64,000 bases of DNA from an uncultured Actinomycetes bacterium (GCA_963810635.1 CAWEOB010000001.1:141751-205750); one strand, 5' to 3'; numbered from the stretch's first letter, positions 11,301 to 19,193 are shown. Made by a program: numbers and translations. Notes: generated by a model not told the origin, from the letters alone.

Positions 11301-11681
11301 ATGCCCATCTACGTCCGCTACCTGGTCCCCGATGTCACGATCGCGAAGGCGTTCTACGTCGACTTCCTGGGCTTCGAGGTCGAGCAGGACTGGGGCGACC
11401 CGTTCGTGATGCTGTCGCGTGGCGAGCTCCGTGTCTGGCTGAGCGGTCCCGCGAGTTCCGCCGCGCGTCCCATGCCGGACGGCCGCGAGCCTTCCCCCGG
11501 TGGTTGGAACCGTTTCGTGCTCGAGGTGGACGACCTCGATGCGGAGGTCGCCCGGCTCCGCGAGGCGGGCGCGACGTTCCGCAACGACGTGGTCCGCGGC
11601 CCCGGAGGGGCCCAGATCCTCCTCGAGGATCCCGCCGGCAACCCGATCGAGCTCTTCCAACCGCGCGAGGACCCGGACTGA
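11301..11681 (+). CDS. VOC / glyoxalase-bleomycin-resistance family protein
   Basis: 126-aa ORF. 'AKAFYVDFLGFEVEQDWG...' and '...GAQILLEDPAGNPIELFQP' match the glyoxalase fold pattern. Confidence 0.8.
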   Translation: MPIYVRYLVPDVTIAKAFYVDFLGFEVEQDWGDPFVMLSRGELRVWLSGPASSAARPMPDGREPSPGGWNRFVLEVDDLDAEVARLREAGATFRNDVVRGPGGAQILLEDPAGNPIELFQPREDPD

Positions 11682-11682
11682 C

Positions 11683-12765
11683 GTGCAGCTGACCGCCGTC
11701 GTCGCCGGAGCCTTGCTCATCGGCCTGGTGCTCTGGGAGACGTTCGAGACCTTGGTGCTGCCTCGGCGCGTCGCCCGGCGGCTGCGCGTGACCCGTGGGT
11801 ATTACCGTGCGTTCTGGGGCGCGTGGTCGGCGGTGGGACGACGGCACCCGGGGCCGACACGCGAGAACTACCTGAGCGTCTTCGCTCCCCTGTCGTTGCT
11901 GATCCTGTTCGTCCTGTGGGCCGGCGCGGTGATCGTCGGGTTCGCGCTCATCCAGTGGGGTCTCGATACGCCGATCGAGCCGGGTATCGACGTGGGCTTC
12001 GCGACCGACCTCTACATGAGCGCCACGACGTTCGTGACCCTCGGCTTGGGGGACGTCGCTCCCGCGTCGGCGGCCGGTCGTGCGATCACGGCCGTCGAGG
12101 CCGGGGCGGGCTTCGCGTTCCTCGCGCTGTCGATCTCGTACCTGCCGGTGCTCTACCAGGCGTTCTCGCGGCGTGAGGTCGCGATCTCCATGCTCGATCA
12201 ATGGGCGGGCTCACCGCCCACGGCCGTCGAGCTGCTCCGGCGCGCCGCGAAGTACGGCGACCTCGCATCGGTGAACGACCTCCTCGCCGAGTGGGAGCGA
12301 TGGTCGGCCGAGCTGCTCGAGAGTCACCTCTCGTATCCGATCTTGGCCTACTTCCGGTCGCAGCACGACGAGCAGTCCTGGCTCGCCGCGCTGACCTCCG
12401 TCCTCGACGCGTCGGCCGTCGTGCTCTCGGGCGTCGATGGGGTCTCGTCCTGGCAGGCCCGCCGGACCTTCGCGATCTCGCGGCACGCGGTCGTCGACCT
12501 CACGCAGGTCTTCCGGCTCCCACCTGAACCGCCGGGCCGGGACCGCCTCACCGGTGACGGGATGCCGCGGGTCCGGCAGCTCCTCGAAGCCGCCGGCATC
12601 GGGCTCGAGCCACATGCCGAAGGGCGCATCGCCGCCTACCGGGAGATGTACGAGCCGTACGTGCACGCCATGTCGCACCGGCTCGAGATGCCGCTCCCGT
12701 CGTTCGTACCCGCGGCGGGAGCGTTGGACGACTGGCAGCGATCGGCGTGGTCGGAGCCGGGTTAG
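11683..12765 (+). CDS. two-TM potassium-channel-family protein with a long cytoplasmic C-terminal domain
   Basis: GTG at 11683, in the frame of track ORF 11500..12765. It has a pore-helix/filter-like segment (ATTFVTLGLGDVAP) flanked by TM helices. The reading frame is intact. Confidence 0.7.
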   Translation: MQLTAVVAGALLIGLVLWETFETLVLPRRVARRLRVTRGYYRAFWGAWSAVGRRHPGPTRENYLSVFAPLSLLILFVLWAGAVIVGFALIQWGLDTPIEPGIDVGFATDLYMSATTFVTLGLGDVAPASAAGRAITAVEAGAGFAFLALSISYLPVLYQAFSRREVAISMLDQWAGSPPTAVELLRRAAKYGDLASVNDLLAEWERWSAELLESHLSYPILAYFRSQHDEQSWLAALTSVLDASAVVLSGVDGVSSWQARRTFAISRHAVVDLTQVFRLPPEPPGRDRLTGDGMPRVRQLLEAAGIGLEPHAEGRIAAYREMYEPYVHAMSHRLEMPLPSFVPAAGALDDWQRSAWSEPG

Positions 12766-12783
12766 ATCCTCACCGAGCCACCA

Positions 12784-13808
12784 TCACGACGTGGCGAGCA
12801 CGCTCTCCGCGATGGCAGGGATGACCTTCTCCCCGTAGGCCTCGCAGCGTCTCGTCCTTGGCGTCGTGCTGCAGGTAGACGGCGAACTGGTCCACGCCCG
12901 AGCGCCCGCAGCTCCTCGAGCCGCCGCACGTGCTCCTCCACCGGGCCGAGGATGCAGAAGCGGTCGACGATATCGTCGGGCACGAAGGCCGTGTGGGTGT
13001 TCCCCGCCTGTCCGTGCTCGTTGTAGTCGTAGCCCTCGCGACCCTTGATGTAGTCGGTCAGCGCCGCCGGGACCTCCGAGGTCCTCGCCGTAGCGGGCGA
13101 CGATGTCGGCCACGTGGTTGCCGACCATGCCGCCGAACCACCGGCACTGGTCGCGCGCGTGACGCGAGGTCGTCCGTGACGTACGCAGGCGCCGCCACGC
13201 AGATCGTGAGCGCGCCGGGGTCGCGGCCGGCGGCCTCGGCGGCTGCGCCGCACCGCGCCGATCGTCCACGCCGCGATGTCGGGATCGGCGAGCTGCAGGA
13301 TGAACCCGTCGCCGACCTCGCCGATCAGCGCGAGCGCCTTCGGCCCGTACCCGGCCACCCAGACCTCGGCCCTGCTCCTGGTCGGCCCAGGGGAACCGCA
13401 GCGTCGAGCCCCGGTACTCGACCTCGCGGCCGTTCGCGAGCTCGCGGATCACGTGGACGGCCTCGCGCGAGCGCCACGAGCGTCGACGGCTTGCCGTTGA
13501 TCACGCGCACCGCCGAGTCGCCGCGGCCGATCCCGATCACGGTGCGGTTGCCGAACATCTCGTTCAGCGTGGCGAAGAGGCTGGCCGTCACGGTCCAGTC
13601 GCGCGTCAGCGGGTTCGTGACCATCGGGACCGACGATGACGTTGCGGGTCTCGGCGAGGATCCGCGTGTAGATCGGGAACGGCTCCTCCCACAGGAGGTG
13701 GCTGTCGAACGTCCACACGTGGGTGAAGCCGTACGTCTCCGCCTGCTTCGCCAGGTCCACCACCCGGGCGCTGGGCGGGGTCGTCTGCAGCACCACGCCG
13801 ATGTCCAT
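12784..13808 (-). pseudogene. LLM-class (luciferase-like) F420-dependent oxidoreductase, broken by ~8 frameshifts as sequenced
   Basis: Conserved segments are spread over three frames: MDIGVVLQTTPP...THVWTFDSHLLWEEPF; MVTNPLTRDWTVTASLFATLNEMFGNRTVIGIGRGDS; IRELANGREVEYRG; VWVAGYGPKALALIGEVGDGFILQLAD; RWFGGMVGNHVADIVARYGEDL; DYIKGREGYDYNEHGQAGNTHTAFVPDDIVDRFCILGP; VDQFAVYLQHDAKDETL; EAYGEKVIPAIAESVLATS*. Confidence 0.75.
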
Positions 13809-13823
13809 GTGCTTCCCTCCGGT

Positions 13824-15258
13824 TCAATGCAGGTACTGCGACAGCCCACGTTCGATGAACCTGCCGTGTCCCTTGCGTCCCGTGTAGGTGTCGTTCTCGA
13901 TCACGACGGTGCCGCGGGACAGGACCGTGTCGACCTTGCCGTCGATCACGAAGCCCTCGTACGCCGAGTAGTCCATGTTCATGTGGTGCTTGTCGTTGAT
14001 GCCGATCGTGGTCGGGCGGTTCGGGTCCCACACGACGACGTCGGCGTCGGCGCCCGGGCGCGATGATCCCCTTGCGCGGGTACATGCCGAACATCCGCGC
14101 CGGCGTCGTGCAGCAGGTCTCGACCCACCGCTCCAGGGTGAGCTCGCCCGTCACGACGCCCTGGTAGATCAGCTCCATCCGGTGCTCGACCCCGCCGATC
14201 CCGTTCGGGATCTTCGAGAAGTCGCCCAGGCCCAGCTCCTTCTGGTCCTTGATGCAGAACGGGCAGTGGTCGGTGCTGACCACGGCGAGCTCGTTCGTGC
14301 GCAGACCCCGCCACAGGCTCGTCCTGATGGTGGTGCTCGTCGTTCGGCGAGCGCAGCGGGGTCGAGCAGACCCACTTGGCGCCCTCGAACCCGGGCCGTG
14401 GCGAGCGTCTCCTCGAGCGTCAGCCACAGGTACTGCGGGCAGGTCTCGGCGAAGACGTTGCGCCCGTCGTGCCGCGCGGCGGCGATCTCCTCCGAGCGCG
14501 TCGCCGGCGGACATGTGCACGACGTAGAGCGGCACGTTGCCGGCGACCTTCGCCAGCATGATCGCGCGATGGGTGGCCTCGGCCTCCAACGGCGACGGCC
14601 GGGTGTAGCAGTGGTACCGGGGGTCGGTGTCGCCGCGAGCCGAGCGCCTGCGCCACGAGCACGTCGATCGCGATGCCGTTCTCGGCGTGCATCATGATCA
14701 TGGCGCCGCACTCCGCGGCCGTCTGCATGGCCCGCAGGATCTGCCCGTCGTCGCTGTAGAGGACGCCGGGGTACGCCATGAAGAGCTTGAAGCTCGTGAC
14801 GCCCTCGTGCTCGGTGAGGTACTTCATGGCCTTCAGCGAGCCCGTCGTCGACGCCGCCGATGATCTGGTGGAAGGCGTAGTCGATCGCGCATTCGCCGTC
14901 GGCCTTGCGGTGCCACTCGGCCAGGCCGGCCTGCACGTCCTCGCCGGTGCGCTGCAGGGCGAAGTCGACGATCGTCGTGACGCCGCCCCACGCGGCGGCG
15001 CGGGTGCCGGTCTCGAACGTGTCGGAGGCGAACGTGCCGCCGAAGGGCAGCTCCATGTGGGTGTGGACGTCGATGCCGCCGGGGATCACGTACTTGCCGG
15101 TCGGCGTCGATGACCTGGTCCGCCCCCGGCTCGTGCGTCGGCGAAGAAGCCGGGCGCGCCCACGGCGGCGATCGTCTCGCCGTCGATCAGGACGTCCTGC
15201 TCGCGCGACGCCGGTGGACGAGATGACCGTTGCCGTTCTCGATCAGCGTGCGTGCCAT
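13824..15258 (-). pseudogene. dihydropyrimidinase / D-hydantoinase, broken by ~9 frameshifts as sequenced
   Basis: ATG at 15258 preceded by GGAGGAGG. Cyclic-amidohydrolase segments lie in different frames: GKYVIPGGIDVHTHMELPFGGT; EGVTSFKLFMAYPGVL; MMHAENG; PLYVVHMS; NVFAETCPQYL; AVVSTDHCPFCIKDQKELGLGDFSKIPNGIGGVEHRM; ADADVVVWDPN...SQYLH*. Confidence 0.85.
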
Positions 15259-15278
15259 CGGCGACCTCCTCCGGGACG

Positions 15279-16126
15279 TCAGCGGGCTACGATCTCGTCG
15301 TAGGCGTCGGGCCGCCGGTCGCGATAGAACGCCCAGCGGTCGCGGACCTGGCGGATCGTGTCCAGGTCGAGGTCGCGGACGATCAGCTCCGGCTTGTACG
15401 CGTCGCCCGACCTCGCCCGACGAACCGTCCCTCGGGATCGACGAAGTAGCTCTGCCCGTAGAAGTCGTTCTCGCCGAGCGGCTCGATGCCCGACCCGGTT
15501 GATCGCGCCCACGTAGTACATGTTCGCCACGGCCGCCGCCGGCTGCTCGAGGCGCCACAGGTACTCGCTCAGACCCCGGTGCGTGGCCGAGGGGTTGAAG
15601 ACGATCTCGGCGCCGCGGAGGCCGAGGATCCGCCAGCCCTCGGGGAAGTGGCGGTCGTAGCAGATGTAGACGCCGACCTTGCCGACGGCGGTCTCGAAGA
15701 CCGGGTAGCCGCCGGTGCCCGGGCGCGAAGTAGAACTTCTCCCAGAACCCCTGGACCTGCGGGATGTGCTGCTTGCGGTACTTGCCCGAGGTAGGTCCCG
15801 TCGGCGTCGATGACCGCGGCGGTGTTGTGGTACAGGCCCGGCTGCACGATCTCGTACATGGGCAGCACGATCACCATGCCGAGCTCCTTCGCGACGCTCT
15901 GGAAACGCGCCGTGGTCGGGCCGTCGGGGATCGGCTCGGTGTAGTCGTAGTACTGAGCGTCCTGCACCTGGCAGAAGTACGGCCCGTAGAACAGCTCCTG
16001 GAAGCACATGACCTGCGCGCCCTGCGCGGCGGCCTCGCGGGCCGCCTCCTCGTGCTTGTCGGTCATGGCCTCTTTGCTGCCGGCCCAGTCGGTCTGGAGC
16101 AGGGCGGCTTTCACGATCCTCGACAT
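15279..16126 (-). pseudogene. nitrilase-superfamily beta-ureidopropionase / N-carbamoyl-amino-acid amidohydrolase, ~4 frameshifts as sequenced
   Basis: ATG at 16126. The first ~113 codons are intact (MSRIVKAALLQTDWAG...VMCFQELF...). After that the segments KYRKQHIPQVQGFWEKFYF, GTGGYPVFETAVGKVGVYICYDRHFPEGWR...IVFNPSAT, IEPLGENDFYGQSYFVDPEGRFV and GDAYKPELIVRDLDLD...IVAR* alternate between frames. Confidence 0.8.
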
Positions 16127-16232
16127 CGTGCGACCCCTTCGTCGGTGAACGGCGAGGTGCTGCTCGGACCCGGCCATGGTAGCCATGCGGAGGCGAGGGC
16201 GCGACCAGGGCCGGCCCCCCTAGACTCGCCCG

Positions 16233-17124
16233 ATGGCGCTGCGCATCGGGATCCAGCTCCCCGAGGTCGAGCGGGACGTGCGGTGGAGGGAGTACGCGTC
16301 CATGGCTCGCGCGGCCGAGACGACGGGCTTCGACTCGATCTGGGTCGGCGACCATCACCTGTATCGCGGCGACGGCCGACCCGAGCGTGGCCCCTGGGAG
16401 GCGTGGACCCTCCTCGCCGCGCTGGCGGCCGTCACCCACGGCGTGCGGTTAGGGCCGCTGGTGGCGTGTCTCGGCTTCCACGAGCCGGCGATCCTGGCGA
16501 AGATGGCCGTCACGGTCGACGAGGTGAGCGGCGGACGCCTCGTCCTCGGGGTCGGCGCCGGCTGGAACCGGACCGAGTTCGAGGCGTTCGGGATCTCCTT
16601 CGACCATCGTGCCTCGCGGTTCGAGGAGGCGTTCGAGATCGTGCGGCGGCTCGTGGCCGGCGAACGGGTCACGTTCGACGGGCGTTGGCATCGGACGGAC
16701 GATGCCGTGCTCCTGCCGACGCCGGCGCGGCGGCCCGCGCTCATGGTCGGGTCCACGGGCCCCCGCGTGCTGGCTGCCACGCTCCCCTCCGTGGACGTGT
16801 GGAACACCTGGTACGACTGGTTCGGCAACTCGCCCGAGGGGTTCCGTGAGGCGCAAGCCGGCATCGATGCGGCGTGCGCACGGGTCGATCGCGATCCGGC
16901 CACCCTCGAGCGGAGCGCGTGCGTGCTCGTCCGGCTCGGTCCGGACGCAGAGCGTCCGGACGAGCCGGGCGTCGCCCCCCTGGAAGGATCCGCCGGAGAC
17001 GCTCGCTGCCGGCCTCCGCGCCTTCGCGGAGGCCGGCGCCGACGAGGTGATCGTGGTCTGCGACCCCATCACCGAAGCGTCGATCACGCACCTCGGACCG
17101 GTCCTCGCGATGGTCCGAGGCTGA
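16233..17124 (+). CDS. LLM-class flavin/F420-dependent oxidoreductase (one frameshift near 16975-16980)
   Basis: 'FDSIWVGDHH', 'LGPLVACLGFHEPAILAKM' and 'GRLVLGVGAGWNRTEFEAFG' are LLM blocks. The C-terminus 'PETLAAGLRAFAEAGADEVIVV...MVRG*' is in the frame of track ORF 16609..17124. The switch occurs at a C6 run (16975-16980). The length is 3n+1. Confidence 0.75.
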
Positions 17125-17142
17125 CGCGGCGCCTCGCGTCAG
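17121..17142. terminator. hairpin spanning both stop codons of convergent genes
   Basis: CTGACGCG (17121-17128) pairs with CGCGTCAG (17135-17142), an 8-bp stem with a 6-nt loop. It contains the TGA of the + gene (17122-17124) and the TCA (reverse TGA) of the - gene (17139-17141). Confidence 0.35.
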
Positions 17143-17981
17143 GTCGGAGGTGGCTCCGTGCGGCCGGTCGCGAGACCTTCCCGCAGCGCCGTGAGCTCCA
17201 CCCGGAGGTCGGCGAGCTCCTGCTGGACGGTCCGGGTCCCCTCCCCTTCCGCCTCGCCTGCGCCCGTCGTGTCCTCCTCCTCGTCGGGCGACGTGACCAA
17301 CACGCTCGCCAAGATGCTCGCGAGCGCCCCGATGATGCCGACGCCGGCGAACATCACGAACACCGCGGTCAGCCGTCCACCCATGGTCACCGGGTACTGG
17401 TCGCCGTACCCGACCGTCGTGATCGTCACCACCGCCCACCACAGGGCGTCCCCGCCCGTGGTGATGTTCGCGTCGGGCGCCTTGCTTTCGAACTGGAGGA
17501 CGAGGACGCTCGCCACGGTCAAGACGATCATCGCAGCCATGATCGTGATGAAGGCCGCGTATTCACCCCGGTGCGTGACGACGTCCTGGATCAGCTCCTT
17601 CTTCTTCTTGCCCTTCAGCAACCGCATGATCCGAGCGAGGCGGCTCAATCGCGCCAATCTGAGGAGCGCGGTGAACCGGAACAAGCCGAAGGTCGGGATC
17701 GACCCCAGCAGGTCCAACCACCCGCGCTCGCCGATGAAGTACGAACGCTTCGGGGACGCTTTCGAGATCCTCCACGTGAAGTCGATGAGGAAGACGACGC
17801 AGATCAGGTTGTCGTAGACGGTCAGCAGCTTGAGCGTCGCGTCGCTCAACGGCAGGAGGAGGACCACCATGACCACCAGGGAGAGGACGGTGAGGACCAG
17901 GATGAAGAGGTCGTACGCGTTGCTCTTCTTCGCGGCCGCGGGCACGGGATCGGTCATCGCGGACAGGCTAGCCCTCGTCAC
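17139..17981 (-). CDS. voltage-gated-type (6TM, Kv-like) potassium channel
   Basis: 280-aa ORF with an S4-like arginine ladder ([20 protein letters not shown]) and the canonical K+ selectivity filter TTVGYGD. Confidence 0.8.
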
Positions 17982-18035
17982 CTGGTGAACCGTGGAGGCA
18001 TGCCGACTTCCGTCCGCACGCGGTCCGGTTCGTCG

Positions 18036-19193
18036 TCAGACGACGTGCAGCGTCGGTGCCTCGACGGCGGTCACCGTCCCTGGAAGCTCCACGACGAAGC
18101 GCGCGCCCCCTCCCGGGCGATCCTCCACGTGCGCGCTCCCGCCGTGCAGCTCCGCGAACCGGCGGACGAGCGAGAGCCCGATGCCCACCCCACCGCGTGA
18201 TTCCGCTCCCTGGCGGAACGGTTCGAAGATCTCGTCCTTGATCTCGTCCGGGACGCCGGGCCCCTCATCCTCCACGTGCAGGACCACGCCGTCGGGCCGC
18301 TCGAGCACCTCGATGTGGATCGGGGTCCCCTGCGGTGTGTGGCGCCCCGCGTTCCCCAGCAGGTTCTCGACGATCCGTTCGACCTTGGCGGCGTCGACCT
18401 CGACCAGGACGGGGTCACCTTCGACCCGCACCGGGTGGCCGGCGAGCGCCGGGACGTCGGCCGCTGCGCGCCGAGCCAGGTCCGCCACGTCGGTGGCGTC
18501 CCGATCCGGCTTCAGCTGGCCCCGGCGCAGACGGTCGAGGTCCAGGAGGTCGTCGACGAGCCGGGTCGCCTTCGCTCCCGCCTGCTCGATCACGCGGTAG
18601 AGATCCTCCAGCTCCTCGTCGGTGAGCACGAGCTGATCGGACCGCCGGATCGTCTGCATCGCCCCGAGGATGCCGGCGAGCGGGCCCTTCAGGTCGTGCG
18701 AGACGGCGTGGAGCAAGGTGTCCTTCATCTCGTTGCGCTGCTGCAGGTCATCGGAGCGCTCGGTCTCGAAGGCGAGCTGCATGCCCTGCTGCTTGACGGC
18801 CGACCGGAGGATCGACAGGAGCCACACGACGAAGACGAAGACGCCGAACCACACGACGGCGTTCCAGGACGGCACCAAGCCGTTGCTGAGGCCGACGGTC
18901 ACGTCGGCGGCCTGGGCGGCGATCGTGGCGAAGCCCGCGATCATCAGCCCCCAGGGGCGCCCGACGTTCCAGGTGACCAGGAGGATCGGCATCAGGTAGA
19001 ACGGCGCGAGCGAGAATCCCCACCCGGTCATGTAGTCGATCAACCCGACCACGACCACGAAGATCACGCTCAGGGCGACCACGGCCCACGCCGGGGCACC
19101 CGAGAAGAACCCGTCCAAGGGTGATGCGCGCGGCTTCTTCTTCCGGCCACGCTTCCCGCGCCCCGCGCGCTCATCCGTCTGGCGAAGACCCAT
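18036..19193 (-). CDS. membrane sensor histidine kinase (HisKA + HATPase_c); no adjacent response regulator
   Basis: H-box 'HAVSHDLKGPL', N-box 'ENLLGNAGRHT', G-boxes 'DEGPGVP' and 'GGVGIGLSLV'. The N-terminal 4-TM region resembles the KdpD-type DUF4118 membrane module (from memory). Confidence 0.8.
   Translation of the reverse strand: MGLRQTDERAGRGKRGRKKKPRASPLDGFFSGAPAWAVVALSVIFVVVVGLIDYMTGWGFSLAPFYLMPILLVTWNVGRPWGLMIAGFATIAAQAADVTVGLSNGLVPSWNAVVWFGVFVFVVWLLSILRSAVKQQGMQLAFETERSDDLQQRNEMKDTLLHAVSHDLKGPLAGILGAMQTIRRSDQLVLTDEELEDLYRVIEQAGAKATRLVDDLLDLDRLRRGQLKPDRDATDVADLARRAAADVPALAGHPVRVEGDPVLVEVDAAKVERIVENLLGNAGRHTPQGTPIHIEVLERPDGVVLHVEDEGPGVPDEIKDEIFEPFRQGAESRGGVGIGLSLVRRFAELHGGSAHVEDRPGGGARFVVELPGTVTAVEAPTLHVV

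What the first reader, a model, noticed from the sequence alone, without database searches (positions are those of the whole stretch)
12845..15790. A ~3 kb indel hot zone: about 20 frame changes in three otherwise perfectly conserved genes, with intact flanks
**Seen in the sequence**
- Reconstructing the LLM oxidoreductase, dihydropyrimidinase and beta-ureidopropionase needs roughly 8 + 9 + 4 frame switches between about 12845 and about 15790.
- The rest of the window needs about one switch per 3-4 kb.
- The K+ channel gene ending at 12765 and the first ~113 codons of the ureidopropionase (16126-15790) are intact, so the zone does not coincide with gene boundaries.
- Between the switches the peptide segments look fully conserved. 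I saw no in-frame stops and no degenerate motifs.
- Five switches I could resolve are an extra G in a GGC codon. On the minus strand these are ctcGGGCaag (15781-15790), cccGGGCacc (15714-15723), gtcGGGCatc (15482-15494), cccGGGCgcc (14046-14058) and ctcGGGCgtg (12890-12902).

**Inference**
- The most likely cause is an unpolished or low-coverage stretch, for example a gap filled from a single error-prone read.
- Very recent operon decay, or a hypermutable or heterogeneous locus, is the more interesting alternative.
Basis: seen in the sequence. Interest (0 to 1): 0.6.

Follow-up and report, generated by a model that had tools for sequence, protein, structure and literature searches.

The report
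Assembly-error frameshift cluster in pyrimidine genes
The roughly 20 frame breaks in three pyrimidine-breakdown genes are 23 spurious single-base insertions made when this soil genome was assembled from long reads, not gene decay, so the genes should be treated as intact.

Summary
Between 12840 and 15788, three minus-strand genes carry 23 one-base insertions: CN-hydrolase/beta-ureidopropionase-like (5), dihydropyrimidinase (10) and a TIGR03842 F420-type LLM oxidoreductase (8). There are no deletions, codon indels or stops.

With the extra bases skipped, all three proteins are full length. Dihydropyrimidinase deviates at 0 of 243 conserved columns. dN/dS is 0.08-0.21, as among intact relatives. 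Real decay is effectively excluded.

The genome is an 11-contig, 82%-complete metagenome bin:
- about 1,560 candidate frameshifts, 72% net +1;
- 36 comparable hot zones;
- a split single-copy ftsZ.

Isolated errors sit next to GATC motifs, which is typical of Nanopore data. Hot-zone errors do not.

In this zone, 19 of 23 insertions read as two synonymous third-position alleles side by side. In 16 of 23, both alleles occur at that codon among relatives (chance about 0.2). The best reading is therefore a consensus built from two or more collapsed haplotypes of a patchily distributed three-gene cassette. Simple low coverage is the main rival. The source reads could not be found, so this sub-mechanism is inferred.

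Verdict: not a real feature; low interest.

The parts
15279..16126 (-). CN-hydrolase (beta-ureidopropionase / N-carbamoyl-amidase-like) gene, 280 codons once 5 extra bases are skipped
   Evidence: aligned end to end to the 280-aa orthologue. PF00795 matched 1-255/256, E 1e-64; no NCBIfam equivalog above cut-off; the best is aguB at 246 bits against a cut-off of 410.
13824..15258 (-). Dihydropyrimidinase (D-hydantoinase) gene, 474 codons once 10 extra bases are skipped
   Evidence: TIGR02033 at 555.8 bits, cut-off 393, profile positions 2-454/454; 117 homologues, almost all 474 aa, with 0 deviations at 243 columns that are at least 97% conserved.
12784..13808 (-). TIGR03842-family LLM-class F420-dependent oxidoreductase gene, 338 codons once 8 extra bases are skipped
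   Evidence: TIGR03842 at 591.9 bits, cut-off 295, profile positions 1-329/329.
15784..15788 (-). Insertion 1, coding-strand context ctCGGGCaa
   Evidence: Readable as CT[C/G] or GG[G/C], and both alleles occur in relatives. Contigs of other soil metagenomes lack one base at 15785.
15717..15724 (-). Insertion 2, context GCCCGGGCac
15488..15492 (-). Insertion 3, context gtCGGGCat
   Evidence: 6-11 contigs per run lack one base at 15489; near-identical short contigs stop here and continue with GCC-GAC where the window has GCCC-GAC.
15415..15419 (-). Insertion 4, context gtCGGGCga
15405..15412 (-). Insertion 5, context GGTCGGGCGA. Together with insertion 4 it makes the apparent '+2' shift.
15230..15232 (-). 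Insertion 6, context ggCAAcgg, readable as GG[C/A]
15196..15204 (-). Insertion 7, context gcGCGAGCAGG
15130..15134 (-). Insertion 8, context gcACGAG, readable as GC[A/C]; not a homopolymer
15101..15101 (-). Insertion 9, context ccgAccg; not a homopolymer
   Evidence: one base is left out at 15104 in other metagenomes.
14840..14843 (-). Insertion 10, context gacGGGCtc
   Evidence: (one base left out at 14840)
14640..14642 (-). Insertion 11, context ctCGGct, readable as CT[C/G]; relatives are split 5:5
14492..14494 (-). Insertion 12, context ctCGGag, readable as CT[C/G]
14398..14401 (-). Insertion 13, context cgCCACgg, readable as GC[C/A]
   Evidence: (one base left out at 14398)
14318..14322 (-). 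Insertion 14, context ggACGAGcc
14052..14059 (-). Insertion 15, context GCCCGGGCgc
   Evidence: (one base left out at 14056)
13625..13629 (-). Insertion 16, context ggTCCCGat, readable as GG[T/C] or CC[C/G]
13467..13467 (-). Insertion 17, context tcgCgcg; second codon position, not a homopolymer
13379..13385 (-). Insertion 18, context ggCCGACCAgg
13244..13245 (-). Insertion 19, context cgCAgc, readable as CG[C/A]
13162..13163 (-). Insertion 20, context gcGTca, readable as GC[G/T]
13080..13084 (-). Insertion 21, context gaGGACCtc
12896..12900 (-). Insertion 22, context ctCGGGCgt
   Evidence: (one base left out at 12900)
12840..12843 (-). Insertion 23, context gcGAGGcc
   Evidence: (one base left out at 12845)
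11500..12765 (+). Intact flanking ORF of 421 aa with an ion-channel domain. It lies outside the cassette shared with other organisms.
   Evidence: PF07885; homology to relatives stops at 12786.
16233..18200 (+). Divergent flanking ORF whose N-terminal 240 aa are a second LLM-class oxidoreductase. The 655-aa length is probably inflated by an isolated frameshift near 16984.
   Evidence: PF00296 matches residues 16-241 only; a +1 event at 16984.

Best explanation
The frame changes are not in the organism's DNA. They are errors of a long-read metagenome assembly.

**Setting.**
- The window belongs to an 11-contig soil metagenome bin (MAG) whose consensus carries roughly one indel per 2 kb.
- Isolated errors sit beside GATC-type motifs. 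This is typical of Nanopore base-calling at methylated sites.

**A second error class in hot zones.** Within a few dozen zones, including this one, single-base insertions are packed every 100-150 bp.

**Most likely mechanism here (inferred).**
- The three-gene cassette CN-hydrolase / dihydropyrimidinase / F420-type LLM is a patchily distributed module.
- It was probably present in the sample as two or more diverged haplotypes lying between the same flanks.
- Reads of both were collapsed onto one contig.
- At a subset of the (mostly synonymous, third-position) differences, the consensus or polishing step wrote both alleles one after the other, for example GGG plus GGC giving GGGC. Each such case adds one base and shifts the frame.

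**Shown:** the artefact status, the insertion-only pattern, and the coincidence of the insertions with polymorphic synonymous sites.

**Inferred:** the existence of two haplotypes in the reads, and the polishing behaviour.

**Odds:** about 0.95 that the zone is an assembly artefact of some kind, and about 0.6 for this particular mechanism.
For: **1. Pattern of the events.**
- 23 of 23 events are +1 insertions.
- There are no deletions, codon indels or stops.

**2. No other damage.**
- The corrected proteins match their family profiles end to end.
- Corrected dihydropyrimidinase deviates at 0 of 243 columns that are at least 97% conserved among 117 homologues. The median homologue deviates at 1.
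- dN/dS against relatives is 0.08-0.21. Relatives compared with each other give 0.05-0.23.

**3. The problem is genome-wide.**
- There are 1,561 candidate same-strand frame switches (0.53 per kb), 72% of them net +1.
- There are 36 zones with at least 7 events per 3 kb.
- The single ftsZ is split between two frames.
- Estimated completeness is 81.7% despite only 11 contigs.

**4. A second hot zone behaves the same way.**
- At C5:45-58 kb, a coxL-type gene has 19-23 '+1' and 1-2 '+2' events against 4-6 '-1', with no in-frame stop against four of five reference proteins.
- A PLP-decarboxylase-like gene there has 13 '+1' and one '+2' against two '-1' and one '-2'.

**5. Two error classes.**
- 46% of isolated events have GATC within 12 nt, against 21.5% of controls.
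- Hot-zone events show 19%. They are depleted in long homopolymers and enriched in CGGGC.

**6. Link to polymorphic sites.**
- 19 of 23 insertions can be read as two synonymous third-position alleles in tandem (null 0.33-0.45, P <= 2e-4).
- In 16 of 23, both alleles are present at that codon among 6-10 relatives (null about 0.2, P 2e-7 to 8e-5 under random-insertion and homopolymer-duplication nulls).

**7. Coincidence with the cassette.**
- All events lie inside the stretch that is homologous to other organisms (12786-16138).
- The cassette is intact at 280/474/338 aa, wherever each gene lies whole on the contig, on 8 independent metagenome contigs, and its flanks differ wherever they are present.
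- Only 2 of 18 congeneric genomes searched carry it.

**8. groEL in the C5 hot region.** The very conserved groEL-like gene has 1 event in 1.6 kb, while its neighbours have 3-9 per kb. This is expected if errors track the density of differences between haplotypes, and not expected for uniform low coverage.

**9. Literature.** Frameshift errors are a known weakness of Nanopore assemblies. They depend on coverage and are more frequent in soil data (PMC9262707; PMC13087279).
Against: - No reads of the source sample could be found. The best public run holds only 0.12 of the k-mers, and those come from other organisms. Neither depth nor haplotypes could be inspected.
- Eight of the 23 events are CGGC->CGGGC. 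For a null restricted to that context, the third-position and both-allele statistics are not significant (P 0.17 and 0.08). Part of the signal could therefore be a context-specific insertion bias. The other 15 events still show both alleles in 9 cases, against an expected 3.
- Another hot zone (C8:108.1-109.7 kb) lies in a stretch with no homologue in the genus and no pile-up in soil metagenomes. Conservation across taxa is therefore not the general driver.
- The polishing behaviour invoked here, writing both alleles, is my inference. I did not find it documented.
Confidence: 0.62

Rival explanations
1. This is still an assembly artefact, but caused by local low coverage. The cassette would be carried by only a minority of the population, or be bridged by one or a few reads. 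The consensus would then keep raw-read indel errors.
For: - The density of one error per ~130 bp is of the order of single-read Nanopore indel error.
- Hot zones are over-represented near contig ends: 33% of hot events lie in the 12.8% of the genome within 20 kb of an end. They also fill the first 120 kb of contig C5.
- Hot zones examined lie in accessory DNA.
- Consensus quality depends on coverage (PMC9262707).
Against: - 23 insertions to 0 deletions is not what random long-read noise gives.
- No substitution errors appear at 243 conserved dihydropyrimidinase columns.
- The insertions sit at polymorphic synonymous sites far more often than random or homopolymer insertions would.
- groEL is spared inside a hot region.
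Confidence: 0.28
2. This is an artefact of a context-specific base-calling bias. One example would be a DNA modification or signal peculiarity at CGGC/GCCG-type contexts that makes the caller add a G. It would act only where the modification or the model fails.
For: - Eight of 23 events produce CGGGC.
- CGGGC is enriched near hot-zone events genome-wide, 13.8% against 7.5%.
- The background errors of this genome are motif-linked to GATC.
Against: - The three corrected genes hold 85 CGGC sites, and only 8 are hit.
- 15 events have other contexts, and six cannot be homopolymer extensions at all.
- A motif effect does not explain why the errors are confined to zones.
Confidence: 0.06
3. The insertions are real. 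This would be very recent inactivation of the operon, or a hypermutable locus that accumulates +1 insertions.
For: Only that the deposited sequence contains the insertions, and that the cassette is accessory and so dispensable.
Against: - A gene dead long enough to collect 5-10 indels should carry many times more substitutions, together with deletions and stops. None is seen.
- The same kind of break hits ftsZ and about 1,500 other places.
- Ten other assemblies (two congeneric genomes and eight metagenome contigs) have intact genes at every site.
Confidence: 0.02
4. This is programmed recoding: +1 ribosomal frameshifting, quadruplet decoding or transcript slippage restores the proteins.
For: The proteins are perfectly conserved between the shifts.
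Against: - 23 sites fall in three genes with at least 12 different contexts.
- No orthologue has a shift at any of them.
- No shared slippery motif is present.
- The same pattern occurs in unrelated genes genome-wide.
Confidence: 0.005

Closest known systems
Indel and frameshift errors of long-read (Nanopore) metagenome-assembled genomes. These are what IDEEL scores measure and what tools such as proovframe correct (PMC9262707; PMC13087279; bioRxiv 10.1101/2021.08.23.457338, title and abstract seen).
   Same: - Single-base indels break otherwise conserved genes across the whole bin, including essential ones.
- Estimated completeness is lowered despite few contigs.
- The sample is soil.
   Different: - This zone is about 20 times denser than the background.
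- It is purely insertional.
- It is not tied to long homopolymers.
Motif-localised Nanopore base-calling errors at methylated sites (GATC and similar)
   Same: This describes the isolated background frameshifts of this genome. GATC, CGATCC and TCGATC are enriched 2-4 fold next to them.
   Different: Hot-zone events show no GATC enrichment: 19% against 21.5% in controls.
Collapsed-strain consensus in metagenome assemblies, the problem addressed by strain-separation tools (for example Strainberry, PMC8302730, abstract seen)
   Same: - The errors coincide with naturally polymorphic synonymous sites.
- The zone is a patchily distributed cassette.
- Other hot zones lie near contig ends and in accessory DNA.
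   Different: I found no description of 'both alleles written in tandem' as a known error signature. That step is my inference.
Genuine pseudogene or operon decay, as in reductive genome evolution
   Same: Multiple frameshifts in neighbouring genes.
   Different: - No stops, deletions or missense changes at conserved sites.
- dN/dS is unchanged.
- All events go in one direction.
Reductive pyrimidine and hydantoin catabolism genes (dihydropyrimidinase plus an N-carbamoyl-amidase of the nitrilase superfamily)
   Same: - The corrected genes are a full-length TIGR02033 dihydropyrimidinase and a full-length CN-hydrolase in one operon.
- This is what the locus encodes.
   Different: - The third gene is a TIGR03842 F420-type LLM oxidoreductase rather than a classical dihydropyrimidine dehydrogenase.
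- Its role is untested.

Membership tests
Long-read assembly indel artefact | Frameshifts occur genome-wide and hit single-copy essential genes | tested here: met
   1,561 candidate frame switches and 36 hot zones; the only ftsZ is split between two frames at C6:88550.
Long-read assembly indel artefact | The broken genes show no other sign of decay (stops, missense at conserved sites, relaxed selection) | tested here: met
   0 stops and 0 codon indels; 0 deviations at 243 conserved columns; dN/dS 0.08-0.21, the same as among intact relatives.
Long-read assembly indel artefact | Independent assemblies of related organisms are intact at the same sites | tested here: met
   two congeneric genomes; eight metagenome contigs. 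Gene lengths are 280/474/338 aa and the codon alignments are ungapped.
Long-read assembly indel artefact | Raw reads do not support the extra bases | not testable with these tools
   no run holds the organism; only 39-64 bp near-identical contigs, and none of those listed spans an insertion site.
Collapsed-haplotype consensus error | Errors coincide with polymorphic (synonymous) sites, and the extra base equals the alternative allele | tested here: met
   19 of 23 are tandem-synonymous (null 0.33-0.45). In 16 of 23 both alleles are seen in relatives (null about 0.2). The result is not significant only against a 'G into CGGC' null.
Collapsed-haplotype consensus error | Two or more haplotypes are visible in the reads across the zone | not testable with these tools
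   The source reads are unavailable.
Collapsed-haplotype consensus error | The zone coincides with a segment that can differ between co-occurring strains | tested here: inconclusive
   the events are confined to the cassette shared with other genomes, and only 2 of 18 congeners searched have it; the flanks, where present, differ between contigs. No direct evidence of two alleles in this sample.
Methylation-motif-linked Nanopore error | Events lie next to the motif (GATC family) | tested here: not met
   hot-zone events 19.4% against control 21.5%. The feature is met only for isolated events (46%).
Pseudogene / operon decay | A mixture of insertions, deletions, nonsense and missense changes, with relaxed selection | tested here: not met
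Programmed frameshift / recoding | The shift site and its motif are conserved in orthologues | tested here: not met
   no orthologue has a shift; the contexts are heterogeneous.
Dihydropyrimidinase (TIGR02033) | Full-length match above the curated cut-off | tested here: met
   555.8 bits against a cut-off of 393.25, on the conceptually corrected protein.
Beta-ureidopropionase / N-carbamoyl-amidase | Nitrilase-superfamily fold plus an equivalog-level match | tested here: inconclusive
   PF00795 full length; the best equivalog model (aguB) scores 246 bits, below its cut-off of 410.
TIGR03842 LLM-class F420-dependent oxidoreductase | Full-length match above the curated cut-off | tested here: met
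   591.9 bits against a cut-off of 295.45.

The most novel reading that the evidence does not exclude
The extra bases are really present in the DNA of at least part of the population. That would mean a burst of +1 insertions at synonymous sites, confined to a recently acquired cassette and to other accessory zones, produced by an unknown slippage-prone or editing-like process.
Probability: 0.02. Interest if true: 0.75.

Novelty: not a real feature. Interest (0 to 1): 0.08.

Why it matters
The value is mainly practical.
- The three genes should be annotated as intact. This bin, and probably its sister long-read bins, should not be used for pseudogene, gene-loss or metabolic-absence claims without frameshift correction.
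- There is a small methodological point. This assembly has two separable error classes: motif-linked isolated indels, and dense insertion-only zones. In this zone the insertions look like two alleles of synonymous SNPs written in tandem. If reads confirm this, such zones would flag collapsed haplotypes in long-read bins and could be corrected with haplotype-aware polishing.

Tried and rejected
- **Second copy in the genome confusing the assembly.** None was found.
- **Finding the source reads.** Three k-mer searches found only unrelated soil metagenomes with shares of 0.12 or less. At 98% or higher likeness only 39-64 bp unitigs match, and none of those listed spans an insertion site.
- **Cross-recruitment of reads from other taxa because the cassette is so conserved.**
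  - This was suggested by the pile-up of foreign contigs exactly on 12835-16174.
  - That pile-up is partly a selection effect, because the runs were chosen for it.
  - The C8 hot zone has no pile-up and no homologue in the genus.
  - The gene with the highest pile-up, groEL in C5, is almost error-free.
  - I rejected it as the general driver. Close-haplotype collapse fits better.
- **Homopolymer extension as the sole cause.** 17 of 23 events are compatible with it, against 0.56-0.61 expected by chance. Six events cannot be homopolymer extensions. Hot-zone events are depleted in G4/C4 runs.
- **GATC or methylation errors as the cause of the zone.** There is no enrichment.
- **Repeating the SNP-site test in the second hot zone.** I did not attempt it. 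The nearest homologues are only about 80% identical in protein, so third positions are saturated. Only the insertion-to-deletion ratio was refined there.
Full report
**What is there.**
Six-frame translation of the minus strand of 12700-16250 shows three conserved genes cut into many frame pieces. Intact orthologues exist in two genomes of the same genus, at 82% and 85% DNA identity. I aligned those proteins to the window with a frameshift-aware alignment of my own and checked the result on DNA alignments.

| Gene | Window coordinates (coding, before stop) | One-base insertions |
|---|---|---|
| CN-hydrolase | 16126->15282 | 5, at 4 shift points (one is double) |
| Dihydropyrimidinase | 15258->13827 | 10 |
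| LLM oxidoreductase | 13808->12787 | 8 |

- All 23 events are one-base insertions. There is no deletion, no codon indel and no in-frame stop.
- The flanks are open.
The density is 7.8 per kb, against about 0.36 per kb in the rest of the window.

**The genes are otherwise pristine.**
- With the extra bases skipped, the proteins are 280, 474 and 338 residues, the lengths of their orthologues.
- They match PF00795, TIGR02033 (556 bits) and TIGR03842 (592 bits) end to end.
- Among 117 dihydropyrimidinase homologues of 77-92% identity, the corrected protein deviates at none of 175 invariant columns and none of 243 columns that are at least 97% conserved. Homologues themselves deviate at a median of 0-1.
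- dN/dS against ten relatives is 0.08-0.21, the same range as relatives among themselves.
- A gene that had been dead long enough to collect 5-10 indels would carry many more substitutions. Real decay is therefore excluded for practical purposes.

**The genome as a whole.**
- The window lies in a 2.96-Mb bin of 11 contigs with estimated completeness of only 81.7%.
- I trained a codon model on the genome and ran a seven-state Viterbi path over all contigs.
- In the finding's zone this scan recovered 19 switch points, matching the reference-based events. Two of them are double insertions.
- Genome-wide it gives 1,561 candidate same-strand frame switches (0.53 per kb), 72% of them net +1. Some of these are gene boundaries, as stop-containing k-mers near the '-1' class show.
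- The counts per 3 kb are strongly over-dispersed. There are 36 merged zones with at least 7 events, and the densest (18-19 per 3 kb) are this zone and C5:49-71 kb.
- The single ftsZ is split between two frames.
- A second hot zone was checked against reference proteins:
  - a coxL-type gene has 19-23 '+1' and 1-2 '+2' events against 4-6 '-1', with no in-frame stop against four of five reference proteins;
  - a PLP-decarboxylase-like gene has 13 '+1' and one '+2' against two '-1' and one '-2'.
- The zone is therefore one instance of a genome-wide assembly problem.

**Two error classes.**
- Isolated events have GATC within 12 nt in 46% of cases, against 21.5% for random coding positions. CGATCC and TCGATC are enriched 3-4 fold.
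- Hot-zone events show no such enrichment (19%). They are depleted in G4/C4 runs and enriched in CGGGC, 13.8% against 7.5%.
- The first class fits motif-linked Nanopore base-calling errors. I reproduced the GATC enrichment and the ftsZ break independently.
- The hot zones need another cause.

**What causes the hot zone.**
- For each insertion I listed every single-base removal that restores the best local match to the orthologues.
- In 19 of 23 cases the site can be read as a codon whose third base is written twice with two different synonymous letters, such as GG[GC], CT[CG], GC[AC] or CG[CA].
- Random insertions or homopolymer duplications in the same genes give 0.33-0.45 (P <= 2e-4).
- In 16 of 23 cases both letters are actually found at that codon among 6-10 relatives, whose DNA aligns without gaps. 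The chance expectation is about 0.2 (P 2e-7 to 8e-5).
- Only a null restricted to 'G inserted into CGGC' is not rejected (P 0.08-0.17). That context covers eight events. The other 15 still show both alleles in nine cases.
- A sequencer knows nothing about codon positions, but differences between strains concentrate there.
- The best reading is therefore that reads of two or more haplotypes of the cassette were collapsed, and that the consensus step kept both alleles at some differing sites.

This reading also explains the following:
- **Direction.** All errors are insertions.
- **Confinement.** All errors lie within 12786-16138, the only part of the region homologous to other genomes.
- **Cassette distribution.** The cassette occurs, intact wherever each gene lies whole on the contig, on eight independent contigs whose flanks differ wherever present, and in only 2 of 18 congeners searched.
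- **Position of hot zones.** They cluster near contig ends.
- **groEL.** The slowly evolving groEL inside the C5 hot region has one event in 1.6 kb, while its neighbours have 3-9 per kb.

**What remains open.**
- No run of the source sample is available.
- In unrelated soil metagenomes, related contigs lack one base at every insertion site among the best-supported differences. Near-identical unitigs among those listed stop at, or lie between, the insertion sites. This is expected under any hypothesis.
- My first idea, recruitment of reads from other taxa because the cassette is so conserved, does not hold in general:
  - the C8 hot zone has no homologue in the genus and no pile-up;
  - the most piled-up gene is nearly error-free.
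- Simple low coverage of an accessory segment remains the main rival, at about 0.28. It does not explain the insertion-only, SNP-linked pattern.
- The literature supports the general picture. Nanopore consensus quality depends on coverage, and frameshift errors are more frequent in soil assemblies (PMC9262707; PMC13087279).

**Verdict.**
- This is an artefact, not biology (about 0.95). The most likely route is a collapsed-haplotype consensus (about 0.6).
- The three genes should be read as intact.
- Interest is low.

Noticed in passing
window 12784-16126; loci L029-L035, L002, L003: The order CN-hydrolase (280 aa), dihydropyrimidinase (474 aa), TIGR03842 F420-type LLM oxidoreductase (338 aa) is kept, with the same lengths, on eight independent metagenome contigs and two congeneric genomes, as far as each contig reaches. 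The flanking genes, where present, differ between them, and only 2 of 18 congeners searched have the cassette. The LLM enzyme may supply the first, reductive step of pyrimidine breakdown using F420. I found no paper describing this.
   Followed up: partly
whole genome (G000), isolated frame switches: Isolated frameshifts are 2-4 fold enriched next to GATC, CGATCC and TCGATC. GANTC-like words (GAATC, GATTC) are enriched 4-6 fold. This may be a footprint of DNA methylation in this uncultured actinobacterium. Part of the AT-rich word signal may instead come from gene boundaries wrongly counted as shifts.
   Followed up: partly
G000 contig C5, first ~120 kb (e.g. L015 = C5:45001-65000): Almost half of all hot-zone events (222 of 449) lie in the first 120 kb of contig C5, with 71 events in one 20-kb stretch. 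This stretch holds form-I CO-dehydrogenase-like genes, whose best hits are about 80% identical proteins of Pseudonocardiaceae and Nocardioidaceae. The whole segment may come from a lower-coverage strain, be strain-mixed, or be wrongly joined or binned.
   Followed up: partly
L015:3180-4806 (G000 C5:48180-49806): A groEL-like gene inside the C5 hot region has a single frame switch, although its neighbours have 3-9 per kb. It also has by far the highest pile-up of foreign metagenome contigs.
   Followed up: partly
G000 C6:87985-88918 (L017, L018): The only ftsZ of the genome is split into two frames at about C6:88550. This is an obvious assembly error in an essential gene.
   Followed up: yes
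window 16233-18200: The 655-aa ORF divergent from the cassette matches the LLM family only over its first 240 residues. A +1 frame switch is predicted at about 16984, so it is probably a roughly 330-aa second LLM oxidoreductase fused to out-of-frame sequence.
   Followed up: no
relatives G005, G010, G013, G018: Four other bins of the same genus combine very few contigs (8-10) with low estimated completeness (76-82%). This is the same signature as in this bin, so they probably carry the same kind of indel errors.
   Followed up: no
G016 contigs C125 and C275: In a short-read bin of the genus, the contig breaks inside the hydrolase gene of the cassette. This is consistent with the cassette being variable between strains or repeated across co-occurring populations.
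   Followed up: no
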